Assembly (NCBI RefSeq): GCF_009914755.1
Contig: NC_060939.1
Length of the DNA stretch: 64,000 bases
Reading direction: 5' to 3' (one strand)
DNA from: the human T2T-CHM13v2.0 reference genome, Homo sapiens
The translations under genes and the position numbers were made by a program. Shown in pieces: positions 6,114 to 7,650 of this stretch (positions are counted from its first letter, which is position 1; every line of letters begins with the position of its first letter). Under the pieces are notes generated by a model that saw nothing but the letters and a program-made list of their open reading frames with translations, did no database searches and had not been told where the DNA came from.

Positions 6114-6418
6114 GGCCGGGCGTGGTGGCTCACGCCTGTAATCCCAGCACTTTGGGAGGTTGAGGTGGGTGGATCACCTGAGGTCAGGAGTTCAAGACCA
6201 GCCTGCCAACATGACAAAAACCCATGTCTACTGAAAATACAAAAAATTAGCTGGGCATGGTGGCGGGTGCCTGTAATTCCAGCTACTCAGAAGGCTGAGG
6301 TAGGAGAATCACTTGAACTAGGGAGGCAGAGTTTGCAGTGAGCTGACATCGTGCTGTTGCACTCCAGCTGGGGCAACTAGAGCGAGACACCATCTCAAAA
6401 AAAAAAAAAAAAAAAAAA
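6114..6418 (+). mobile_element. Full-length AluS (Sp/Sq-like)
   Basis: ggccgggcgtggtggctcac start, dimeric body, A-tail 6397-6418. The matching TSD copy appears only at 7052-7066. Confidence 0.93.
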
Positions 6419-6423
6419 GAAAC

Positions 6424-6709
6424 GGGGCAACCCGCTCGGGTCCCCTTCCACACTGTGGAAGCTTTGTTCTTTCGCTCTTTGCGATAAATCTTGCTACTGC
6501 TCACTCTTTGGGCCCACGTTGCTTTTATGAGCTGTAACATTCACTGCGAAGATCTGCAGCTTCACTCCTGAGCCCAGCAAGACCACGAGCCCACTGGGAG
6601 GAACGAACAACTCCAGACGCGCCACCTTAAGAGCTGTAACACTACTGCAAGGGTTCGCGGCTTCATTCTTGAAGTCAGTGAGACCAAGAACCCACCAATT
6701 CCGGACACA
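6424..6709 (+). mobile_element. LTR12 (LTR12C-like, ERV9) R-U5 fragment with no U3
   Basis: Runs from ggcaacccgctcgggtccccttccac to ccaattccggacaca and aligns with 46331-46751 of the intact LTR12 in this window. Confidence 0.92.
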
Positions 6710-7011
6710 TTTTAGCTCAGATATAGTATTACATCACATTAATATACTTTAAATTTACTTATCCATATTCTCTCAGCTAACAGTAAAGATTTTAAAAATT
6801 AATAATCTAGTATAGATTAATGGTAAAGGGCAGAGAAGCTATATATTGATATCATGTCTTGGAAAGTAAAGTTTTAGGTAAGTTACCAAAATTTGAAATT
6901 CATATACCATTGAGCTGTGAAGTCCACATCTGGTAATCTATCCAAAAAAATACTTGTGCAGATATGGAGAAATTTACTAGGATGCTCTTTTAAAAAATAA
7001 TAAAATTATGT

Positions 7012-7049
7012 AAAAACAAACAAACAAACAAACAAACAAACAAACAAAC
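7012..7049 (+). repeat. (CAAA)n degenerate poly(A) tail
   Basis: Follows AATAAA at 6999-7004 and precedes the TSD copy at 7052-7066. Confidence 0.85.
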
Positions 7050-7650
7050 CCGAAAAGATAGTTTATCACTTGCAGTTCCCAAGAGGAAGGGACATGCCAT
7101 ACCACGGGGGCCTCATGGGGAAGCCCTGGGATGAGTCAGGAGGCAGAGGAAGAGGGGAGAACAGTGGGCAAGAGCCTTTGTTGTTTTCCTTGGGAAAAGC
7201 TTGGGTGAGGCAAGGTGAACTGACTTAGGATTGGCTAGTTTAATAATTTCAATGGGCTCTGAGGGATAGAGGCTATCCCTACCTGTCTGGTATTTGGCCA
7301 TAGGGTAATTAGGGCAGGGGTGTAGTAGCTTGGAGTGTGAGAGCCCAGTAAGAGGTGGTTTGGGGCTGTGAGCTCCGGGTTGGTTGTTTTTTATTTGAAA
7401 AGCATAACCTGGGAGGGGGACTTCTCCAGGTAAAGGGAGTGGGGGGGGTCAGTTGACAAGAGAGGCAGGAGGACAAGGCAACGTGACTGAGACATATTAT
7501 TGGGTTGTCTAGAATGAGGTGTGTTTGACATATGCATGTAGGACAGATATGAAAATGTCAAGTTTACAGAAGTTAGGCACGTGGTTAATATAAGTGGCTA
7601 AAAGCCAAGATTCTAGAATCAAACTGCTTGATTTCTTAATATGTAATAAT

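What the first reader, a model, noticed from the sequence alone, without database searches (positions are those of the whole stretch)
6114..7066. Retrocopy of an LTR12-initiated read-through transcript, enclosed with an Alu inside one TSD
Seen: a perfect 15-bp TSD GAAAAGATAGTTTAT (6099-6113 / 7052-7066) inside an LTR40. It brackets a full Alu with A-tail, an LTR12 R-U5 piece (6424-6709), ~290 bp of foreign genomic-type sequence, AATAAA (6999-7004) and a (CAAA)n tail. The LTR12 piece has no U3. It starts at GGCAACC, which in the intact LTR12F here lies ~24-29 nt downstream of the TATA-like AATAAA box, i.e. at the expected start site, and it is preceded by extra Gs. Its internal poly(A) signal reads GATAAA (6483-6488), whereas both intact LTR12s in the window have AATAAA. 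Inference: a solo LTR12 elsewhere drove a germline Pol II transcript that read through its own poly(A) signal into flanking DNA and was copied by L1 machinery. It either landed in the A-tail of a pre-existing older AluS (favoured; aaagaaac/aaacaaac may be its own A-rich TSD) or formed an Alu chimera by template switching. Pol III read-through from the Alu is unlikely because TTTT occurs at 6523 and 6710. This would be a fossil record of an LTR-born transcript spreading by a non-retroviral route.
Basis: partly seen in the sequence, partly recalled or inferred. Interest (0 to 1): 0.8.

Follow-up and report, generated by a model that had tools for sequence, protein, structure and literature searches.

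The report
Retrocopy of LTR12-started read-through transcript
A 586-base stretch of chromosome 15 is an old reverse-transcribed copy of an RNA that began at the promoter of a retroviral LTR on chromosome 12, ran past the LTR's weakened stop signal into neighbouring DNA, and was most likely pasted by LINE-1 machinery into the tail of an older Alu: a neat molecular fossil of an otherwise ordinary kind.

Summary
The 15-base duplication (6099-6113 / 7052-7066) is real, and six of 11 sister copies of the host repeat show the empty site. The "foreign" 300 bases have one other match in the genome, on chromosome 12. There they directly follow a complete solo LTR12 that has U3 and the same GATAAA variant. 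Window 6426-7011 is colinear with that locus, with 31 mismatches in 583 aligned bases. It runs from the published LTR12 start-site motif to 7 bases past a flanking AATAAA, then carries a tail. Two extra G precede it.

Twenty-two other short LTR12 copies elsewhere in the genome start at the same base with extra G, so this 5' end is a recurrent RNA start.

The Alu in front is about four times more diverged than the retrocopy at non-CpG sites (7.2% against about 1.7%). This favours insertion into an older Alu's tail (about 85%) over a template-switch chimera (about 10%). Only primate orthologues can settle that, and none were available.

It is a new member of a known kind, the LINE-1-made retrocopy. 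The short "R-only" LTR12 copies met on the way may be the more interesting lead.

The parts
6040..6098 (+).
   Evidence: The whole-genome search with 5800-6113 matched at least 40 scored loci, only over query positions about 225-314, which is window about 6025-6113. Sister copies continue into the right flank.
6099..6113 (+). Left copy of the 15-base target-site duplication GAAAAGATAGTTTAT. It is preceded by TT, so the nick site reads TT|GAAAAG, close to the LINE-1 endonuclease preference.
   Evidence: The sequence is single-copy at the homologous place in 6 of 11 sister repeats.
6114..6396 (+). Full-length Alu body of AluS type, old: 18 of 251 non-CpG and 9 of 30 CpG-site differences from a consensus of 32 S-type Alus
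   Evidence: The best match among the 40 of 5444 genome candidates that were scored is 88%.
6397..6423 (+). Alu A-tail: A22, G, AAAC. Its last bases (AAAGAAAC) may be the left copy of the retrocopy's own A-rich duplication.
   Evidence: The reading as a duplication is inference.
6424..6425 (+). Two G absent from the donor, which has TT there. Read as untemplated bases from copying the RNA cap.
   Evidence: Alignment to the donor starts at 6426. All 22 short LTR12 retrocopies examined also carry at least one extra G. The link between extra G and the cap is from PMC9341517 (passages).
6426..6709 (+). LTR12 R-U5, from the transcription start (GGCAACC) to the LTR's last base. U3 is absent.
   Evidence: Colinear with donor L002 1216-1500. 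All 29 best-matching LTR12 copies elsewhere have U3 upstream.
6483..6488 (+). GATAAA in place of the LTR's own AATAAA polyadenylation signal
   Evidence: Shared with the donor. Among 29 related LTR12 copies: 23 AATAAA, 2 GATAAA (the donor and one chr14 copy), 2 AGTAAA, 1 AATAAG, 1 deleted.
6710..7011 (+). Copy of the single-copy DNA that follows the donor solo LTR on chr12. It contains AATAAA at 6999-7004 and ends at the cleavage site 7 bases after it.
   Evidence: The donor continues with TTGTTAATT, a T/GT-rich stretch, where the copy has its tail.
7012..7051 (+). Tail A5(CAAA)8CCC. It is the decayed poly(A) of the retrocopy and, under the nested reading, also the right copy of its A-rich duplication and the end of the Alu tail.
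   Evidence: How the tail divides between these parts is inference.
7052..7066 (+). Right copy of the 15-base target-site duplication
7067..7410 (+). Remainder of the host repeat, right of the insertion
   Evidence: The right flank aligns to sister copies up to about query position 355-361 of 7052-7500.

Best explanation
Window 6424-7051 is a LINE-1-made retrocopy of an unspliced, capped and polyadenylated RNA of about 584 bases.

- **Source.** RNA polymerase II started the RNA at the initiator of a solo LTR12 on chromosome 12 (G000:C12:32402875), 29 bases after the start of its AATAAA box.
- **Read-through.** The RNA passed the LTR's own polyadenylation signal, which in this LTR reads GATAAA. 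It ran through U5 and 299 bases of flanking single-copy DNA. It was cleaved 7 bases after a flanking AATAAA that is followed by a T/GT-rich stretch.
- **Copying.** LINE-1 proteins copied the RNA in the germ line up to its cap, which left two extra G.
- **Landing site.** The copy most likely landed in the A-tail of an AluS that was already sitting in the host repeat. On that reading the perfect 15-base duplication belongs to the Alu, and the retrocopy's own duplication is the A-rich AAAGAAAC / AAACAAAC.
- **Age.** The event is roughly 20-25 million years old.
- **Activity.** The copy has no U3 and therefore no promoter. It is an inert fossil.

Shown: the donor, colinearity, both ends of the copy, absence of U3, the shared GATAAA, and the empty site in sister repeats. 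Inferred: LINE-1 as the copying machinery, cap-derived G, a causal role for GATAAA, nested rather than simultaneous arrival of the Alu, and the date.
For: **Donor**
- The flank 6710-7010 has one other match in the genome, at chr12, 95% identical.
- The donor locus has a full LTR12 (L002 85-1500) with U3 repeats, AATAAA at 1187-1192, GGCAACC at 1216 and GATAAA.
- No second LTR lies within 8.8 kb upstream, and the LTR has 4-base flanks CTTT/TTTT, so it is a solo LTR.
- Window 6426-7011 aligns to L002 1216-1799 with 31 mismatches in 583 aligned bases and two small indels. There is no intron-sized gap.

**5' end**
- It lies in the published start-site motif GCCAGCAGTGGC / GTGGC, about 30 bases after AATAAAA (PMC11853044 section 5; PMC7641743 passages).
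- 22 of 22 independent short LTR12 copies start at the same base with extra G.

**3' end**
- Homology stops 7 bases after AATAAA, and a tail follows.

**Insertion**
- Sister copies of the host repeat show the empty site in 6 of 11 cases.

**Nested arrival**
- Alu non-CpG divergence is 18 of 251, or 7.2%.
- The retrocopy and donor differ at 19 of 545 non-CpG sites, about 1.7% per lineage.
- Polarising the LTR part with 28 other copies assigns 6 changes to the retrocopy, 11 to the donor and 1 as ambiguous.
- Fisher's test gives p = 0.0003, or 0.012 if five Alu differences are discounted as subfamily markers.
- Catalogued Alu/LINE-1 chimeras mostly involve Alu subfamilies active at the time of insertion (PMC13174262 passages).
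- A-rich stretches are known landing sites for sense-oriented insertions (PMC2836564 passages).

**Germ-line activity**
- LTR12 is described as a germline-specific promoter (PMC9343867 passage).
Against: - The retrocopy has no clear duplication of its own. AAAGAAAC / AAACAAAC is short, A-rich and has one mismatch.
- Only five pure A follow the cleavage site.
- If the 15-base duplication belongs to an Alu that is 4.5-7% diverged, staying perfect has a probability of only about 0.11-0.25, against 0.59 if it is as young as the retrocopy.
- The Alu consensus I used came from the copies most similar to this Alu, so it is biased. If every retrocopy-donor difference is charged to the retrocopy, the age contrast weakens to p = 0.029.
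- LTR12-driven gene transcripts read through an intact AATAAA as well, so GATAAA need not be the cause of read-through.
- The cleavage site is close to the hexamer: 7 bases after its end.
- There are no expression data for the donor and no orthologous sites.
Confidence: 0.8

Rival explanations
1. Single-event chimera. LINE-1 reverse transcriptase copied the LTR12-started RNA to its cap. It then switched template to an Alu RNA, or the two RNAs were ligated beforehand. Alu and cargo would then have arrived together, and the 15-base duplication would belong to both.
For: - One perfect duplication encloses both parts, which lie in the same orientation. The Alu is full length, and the junction is A-tail followed by extra G and the RNA 5' end.
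- 452 Alu/LINE-1 chimeras of this layout are catalogued (PMC13174262 passages).
- A perfect 15-base duplication fits a young event better: 0.59 against 0.11-0.25.
- One other locus (L084) has two short LTR12 copies head to tail inside one duplication.
Against: - The Alu is about four times more diverged than the cargo at non-CpG sites.
- Catalogued chimeras mostly use Alu subfamilies active at the time. Around 20-25 million years ago a fresh Alu copy should now look as young as the cargo.
- The Alu tail ends in AAAC, the unit of the terminal (CAAA)8 array. The nested reading explains this as a split tail or duplication. The chimera reading leaves it to chance.
- No near-identical source Alu was seen: the best match is 88%, though only 40 of 5444 candidates were scored.
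Confidence: 0.1
2. DNA-level origin. Either a full LTR12 integrated here and lost its U3 by deletion, or a DNA segment was duplicated or converted from chr12.
For: None specific. LTR fragments are often deletion products.
Against: - The piece begins at the RNA start site with extra G.
- It carries 302 bases of the chr12 flank, which ends at a polyadenylation site and is followed by a tail.
- There is no 4-base retroviral duplication. The three solo LTR12 inspected do have 4-base flanks: AAAG and ATAA are perfect, and the donor's CTTT/TTTT differ at one base.
- The boundaries are those of a transcript, not of a DNA segment.
Confidence: 0.02
3. RNA polymerase III read-through from the Alu into downstream DNA at some source locus, followed by retrotransposition of the long Alu transcript.
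For: The Alu and the cargo are contiguous and in the same orientation.
Against: - At the only locus that holds the cargo, the sequence upstream of GGCAACC is LTR12 U3, not an Alu.
- TTTT runs at about 6522 and at 6710 would stop polymerase III.
- The Alu is much older than the cargo.
Confidence: 0.01

Closest known systems
HERV-W processed pseudogenes (LINE-1-made copies of retroviral RNA: R-U5-genes-U3-R-poly(A) with duplications)
   Same: The 5' end is at the R start without U3. There is a poly(A) tail, the copying was done by LINE-1 rather than by the retroviral route, and the element is inert.
   Different: This copy has no viral genes and no 3' U3-R. The RNA came from a solo LTR of another group (ERV9/LTR12) and ended in cellular flank. 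One review abstract calls HERV-W the sole HERV group mobilised by LINE-1 (PMC5537654; only the abstract start in the search listing was seen).
3' transduction by LINE-1 and SVA (read-through of the element's own weak poly(A) signal, use of a downstream signal, flank carried along)
   Same: The logic is the same. The element's own signal is bypassed, the next AATAAA in the flank is used, and the flank identifies the donor locus.
   Different: The transcribed unit here is an LTR promoter fragment that cannot start a new round, because U3 is not copied.
Alu/LINE-1 and U6/LINE-1 chimeric insertions (Law and Burns 2026, PMC13174262, passages seen)
   Same: A full-length sense Alu at the 5' side, a second RNA copy at the 3' side, and one duplication around both.
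   Different: Here the 3' partner is not LINE-1 and is complete up to its cap. The Alu is much older than the partner, which argues for two separate events.
Retrocopies of non-coding primary transcripts used to infer how the parent was transcribed (microRNA retrocopies, PMC7692494; title and abstract start only)
   Same: The retrocopy preserves the start and end of an otherwise unrecorded transcript.
   Different: The parent here is an LTR-driven read-through RNA, not a microRNA host transcript.
Short 'R-only' LTR12 retrocopies found here (22 copies inspected)
   Same: The same 5' base with extra G, no U3, a tail, and duplications. The same promoter family produced the RNA.
   Different: Those copies end at the LTR's own AATAAA, so they are about 78 bases long. 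The window copy has GATAAA there and runs on for another 500 bases or so.

Membership tests
LINE-1-mediated retrocopy (processed retropseudogene) | A donor locus exists elsewhere, and the copy is colinear with a transcript of it | tested here: met
   one donor at chr12, with 31 mismatches in 583 aligned bases and two small indels.
LINE-1-mediated retrocopy (processed retropseudogene) | The promoter is not copied, and the 5' end is at the transcription start | tested here: met
   U3 is absent. The start lies at GGCAACC within the published start motif. It is the same start as in 22 of 22 short LTR12 copies.
LINE-1-mediated retrocopy (processed retropseudogene) | A poly(A) tail directly after a signal-directed cleavage site | tested here: met
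   AATAAA is at 6999-7004, homology ends at 7011, and the tail is A5(CAAA)8CCC. The tail is decayed.
LINE-1-mediated retrocopy (processed retropseudogene) | Its own target-site duplication of about 7-20 bases at a TT/AAAA-like site | tested here: inconclusive
   The clear 15-base duplication at TT|GAAAAG encloses the Alu as well. Under the nested reading the retrocopy's own duplication is only AAAGAAAC / AAACAAAC.
LINE-1-mediated retrocopy (processed retropseudogene) | Loss of introns | not testable with these tools
   The copy is colinear with the genome. The RNA was unspliced, so this hallmark cannot apply.
Solo LTR12 (ERV9) integrated by the retroviral route | Complete U3-R-U5 with TG...CA ends and a 4-base duplication | tested here: not met
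   The window piece lacks U3 and has no 4-base duplication. The donor and the two LTR12 copies in the window have this layout, though the donor's 4-base flanks CTTT/TTTT differ at one base.
HERV processed pseudogene of the HERV-W type | R-U5 at the 5' end, viral genes, and U3-R-poly(A) at the 3' end | tested here: not met
   Only the 5' R-U5 is present. The rest is cellular flank.
Template-switch chimeric retrogene (Alu plus a second RNA) | Two RNA copies in the same orientation inside one duplication, with a full-length 5' part | tested here: met
Template-switch chimeric retrogene (Alu plus a second RNA) | Both parts arrived at the same time | tested here: not met
   By divergence, the Alu is 7.2% diverged at non-CpG sites and the cargo about 1.7%, p = 0.0003 to 0.029 depending on assumptions. 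The direct test with orthologous sites was not possible.

The most novel reading that the evidence does not exclude
Solo LTR12 promoters have repeatedly fed LINE-1 with short capped, polyadenylated RNAs. The genome holds a family of about 78-base 'R-only' LTR12 retrocopies that my searches did not find described. All 22 of 22 copies inspected lack U3 and start at the same base with extra G. About 30 loci match one strict pattern.

The window element would be that family's read-through form, made possible by the GATAAA change in one donor, and comparable to a 3' transduction.

Together these copies would act as a dated fossil record of LTR12 start-site and poly(A)-site use in the primate germ line. 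They would also contradict the view that only HERV-W RNAs were mobilised by LINE-1.
Probability: 0.4. Interest if true: 0.6.

Novelty: new member of a known kind. Interest (0 to 1): 0.45.

Why it matters
- **Past promoter activity.** This is direct genomic proof that one particular solo LTR12 was an active germ-line promoter some 20 million years ago. Both ends of its RNA are preserved to the base.
- **Effect of the signal change.** It gives a natural comparison for a change in the poly(A) signal. Copies made from LTR12 with AATAAA stop at about base 78. The copy from the GATAAA donor runs on to the next signal.
- **Annotation.** Some short or U3-less "LTR12 fragments" in repeat tables are LINE-1 products, not decayed proviral integrations. 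This matters when such fragments are counted as regulatory elements or used to date ERV9 activity.
- **Limit.** The element itself has no promoter and no sign of function.

Tried and rejected
- **Within-window search for the cargo.** Only a self match.
- **Rfam scan of 5900-7300.** No family reached its gathering score.
- **Provirus at the donor.** No second LTR lies in the 8.8 kb upstream, so a 3' LTR of a provirus is rejected.
- **Alu consensus, first two tries.**
  - 19 mixed copies gave a Y-leaning consensus.
  - 6 S-type copies recovered only 10 CpG, so it was too small a sample.
  - Both were replaced by 32 S-type copies. That set is still biased, because those copies were picked for likeness to this Alu.
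- **Search for a source Alu with this Alu's private changes.** The best match was 88%, with only 40 of 5444 candidates scored. This is not informative either way.
- **Sibling retrocopies next to an A-run.** The pattern search found only the window and one R-only copy.
- **La Mantia 1992, the start-site mapping paper.** It is not held. I relied on two later papers that cite it.
- **Literature on LTR12 retrocopies.** Searches, plus a term search of the 2025 LTR12 review ('pseudogene' occurs 0 times), found no description. The library lacks most subscription journals and I opened no supplements, so this does not show that none is in print.
- **Alu inserted after the cargo.** Rejected. The Alu is the older part and has no duplication of its own at its tail end.
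- **Structure, complex and protein tools.** Not used. Nothing here is coding.

Full report
**Observation**

GAAAAGATAGTTTAT occurs twice in the window, at 6099-6113 and 7052-7066. Chance expectation is 0.02, and none of 100 shuffles gave two matches.

Between the two copies lie, in order:

| Coordinates | Feature |
|---|---|
| 6114-6396 | full Alu body |
| 6397-6423 | Alu tail: A22, G, AAAC |
| 6424-6425 | two G |
| 6426-6709 | LTR12 R-U5, ending at the LTR's last base |
| 6710-7011 | 302 bases of non-repeat sequence, with AATAAA at 6999-7004 |
| 7012-7051 | tail A5(CAAA)8CCC |

The LTR's own poly(A) hexamer reads GATAAA (6483-6488). The two LTR12-type solo LTRs in the window are at 45524-46751 (+) with a 4-base duplication AAAG, and at about 10468-10981 (-) with ATAA. 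Both have AATAAA there.

**The block is an insertion**

The left flank, from about 6040, belongs to an interspersed repeat with at least 40 scored copies. I could not verify the name LTR40.

In 6 of 11 fetched sister copies, the sequences homologous to the left and right flanks abut, with one copy of the 15-mer. That is the empty-site picture.

The other five:
- Two have a lone Alu at the same site.
- Two match the right flank only further in.
- One had no right-flank match.

**Donor**

A search of the window's own genome with 6710-7010 gave two matches: the window itself and chr12:32403160-32403457, at 95% (2 of 2 candidates scored).

At the chr12 locus (L002) this sequence directly follows a complete LTR12 (L002 85-1500). 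That LTR has:
- U3 with its tandem repeats
- AATAAA at 1187-1192
- the motif GCCAGCATTGGC
- GGCAACC at 1216
- GATAAA in R

The LTR has 4-base flanks CTTT/TTTT, and no second LTR lies within 8.8 kb upstream. It is therefore a solo LTR.

Window 6426-7011 aligns without a break to L002 1216-1799. There are 587 columns, 31 mismatches, and a 1-base and a 3-base indel.

Homology begins at GGCAACC. The window has GG where the donor has TT just before it. Homology ends at ...AATAAAATTATGT. After that the donor continues TTGTTAATT and the window has its tail.

So the copy has the boundaries of a transcript of about 584 bases, not of a DNA segment. The direction is chr12 to chr15.

**The 5' end is the LTR12 start site**

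Two papers place the start in GCCAGCAGTGGC / GTGGC, about 30 bases downstream of an AATAAAA box (PMC11853044 section 5; PMC7641743 passages). In the donor the box starts 29 bases before GGCAACC. The original mapping paper was not held.

Independent support came from the genome itself:
- A pattern for the LTR12 R hexamer region followed by an A-run gave 126 overlapping matches and 0 in the reversed-pattern control. At least 24 distinct loci were listed, and 26 matches were not listed.
- I fetched 20 of these loci and already held one more (L076). That makes 22 copies.
- All 22 lack U3.
- All 22 start with GGG or more G before CAAC: 18 with three G, 3 with four, and 1 with five. Genomic LTR12 has two G after a T.
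- All 22 end 13-24 bases after AATAAA in an A-tail.
- The script found duplications of 7 bases or more, with at most one mismatch, in 16 of the 22.

The window copy starts at the same base, with two extra G. Extra G at the 5' end of LINE-1-made insertions is attributed to copying of the cap (PMC9341517 passages).

**Read-through**

Among 29 LTR12 copies most similar to the window piece, all 29 have U3 upstream. The hexamer in R reads as follows:

| Hexamer | Copies |
|---|---|
| AATAAA | 23 |
| GATAAA | 2 (the donor and one chr14 copy) |
| AGTAAA | 2 |
| AATAAG | 1 |
| deleted | 1 |

The 22 short copies show that RNAs from LTR12 with AATAAA can end at about base 78. The one copy derived from a GATAAA donor runs on to the next AATAAA in the flank.

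LTR12-driven gene transcripts also pass an intact signal.

**Age**

The retrocopy and donor differ at 19 of 545 non-CpG sites and 12 of 38 CpG-context sites.

In the LTR part, comparison with 28 other copies assigns 6 changes to the retrocopy lineage, 11 to the donor and 1 as ambiguous.

With a neutral rate of about 1.1e-9 per site per year (recalled, not from a call), the 5.3% pairwise difference suggests roughly 20-25 million years.

**Alu: nested or chimera**

Evidence for nested insertion:
- The Alu is of S type.
- It differs from a consensus of 32 S-type Alus at 18 of 251 non-CpG sites, or 7.2%.
- The cargo has about 1.7% per lineage.
- Fisher's test gives p = 0.0003. It gives 0.012 if five differences are discounted as subfamily markers, and 0.029 if all cargo differences are charged to the retrocopy.
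- The consensus is biased towards this Alu's decayed CpG states, so the total divergence is understated. Counting those states from my recalled AluS consensus, I put the total at about 12%; this estimate comes from no call.
- Catalogued Alu/LINE-1 chimeras mostly use Alu subfamilies active at the time (PMC13174262 passages).
- A-rich stretches are favoured landing sites for sense-oriented insertions (PMC2836564 passages).
- The Alu tail ends in AAAC, the unit of the terminal (CAAA)8 array, as expected if the cargo split one tail.

Evidence against nested insertion:
- The retrocopy has no clear duplication of its own.
- Only five pure A follow the cleavage site.
- A perfect 15-base duplication is less likely for an old Alu (0.11-0.25) than for a young event (0.59).

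I put nested insertion at about 85% and a template-switch or ligation chimera at about 10%. Primate orthologues would decide. No primate genome was available.

**Other readings rejected**
- Polymerase III read-through from the Alu: the donor has U3 upstream, not an Alu.
- Local loss of U3 or a DNA duplication: the ends are transcript ends and there is a tail.
- A structured RNA family: no Rfam family reached its gathering score in 5900-7300.

**Comparison with what is known**

The element works like a processed retrocopy. Its read-through logic is like a LINE-1 or SVA 3' transduction.

It resembles HERV-W processed pseudogenes in starting at R without U3. It is not one, because it has no viral genes or 3' U3-R.

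One review abstract calls HERV-W the sole HERV group mobilised by LINE-1 (PMC5537654, abstract start in the listing). A 2025 review of LTR12 mentions no such copies: 'pseudogene' occurs 0 times in it.

My searches found no description of LTR12 read-through or R-only retrocopies. The library lacks most subscription journals, and I read no supplements.

**Verdict**

The element is a new member of a known kind and is inert. Interest is moderate. The R-only LTR12 copies met in passing deserve a census.

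Noticed in passing
Own genome, loci L076 and L079-L098 (for example G000:C12:66282442-66282550, C3:82629834, C11:35118392): A recurrent class of about 78-base 'R-only' LTR12 retrocopies. All 22 of 22 copies inspected lack U3, start at (G)GGCAACC and end 13-24 bases after the LTR's AATAAA in an A-tail. The script found duplications of 7-16 bases in 16 of the 22. One strict pattern gave 126 overlapping matches, with at least 24 distinct loci listed, and 0 in the control. My literature searches found no description.
   Followed up: partly
L084 (G000:C4:70877530-70877916): Two different R-only LTR12 copies lie head to tail (R-A28-R-A13) and seem to be enclosed by one duplication (catgttgaa / catgttaag). 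This poses the same nested-or-chimera question as the window element.
   Followed up: no
L010 1555-1880 (chr17) and L012 1555-1880 (chr3); window 6099-6113: In two other copies of the host repeat, a lone Alu sits at the homologous site with the homologous duplication (ggtagtttgc; agatagtttg). With the window, that makes three independent insertions at one TT|RAAAAG site, which is therefore a LINE-1 endonuclease hot spot within this repeat family.
   Followed up: partly
window 45524-46751 (+) and about 10468-10981 (-): Two solo LTR12-type elements with clean 4-base duplications (AAAG; ATAA). The minus-strand one is only about 514 bases, which matches the length given for LTR12F in PMC11853044.
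   Followed up: partly
L047 (G000:C14:69205146-69205430): A second full LTR12 with GATAAA in R, 95% identical to the window piece in R-U5. That is closer than the true donor, which is 93%. The LTR part alone would therefore have pointed to the wrong donor. Only the flank identifies it.
   Followed up: no
L079 and L091 (G000:C1:12735159-12735438 and C1:12451544-12451823): The same R-only copy with the same flanks occurs twice on chr1 in opposite orientation, about 284 kb apart. This looks like a later segmental duplication, so these two are one retrocopy event, not two.
   Followed up: no
window 5353-5647: A LINE-1 3'-region-like fragment (family recalled by eye, not tested) sits about 400 bases upstream of the host repeat.
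   Followed up: no
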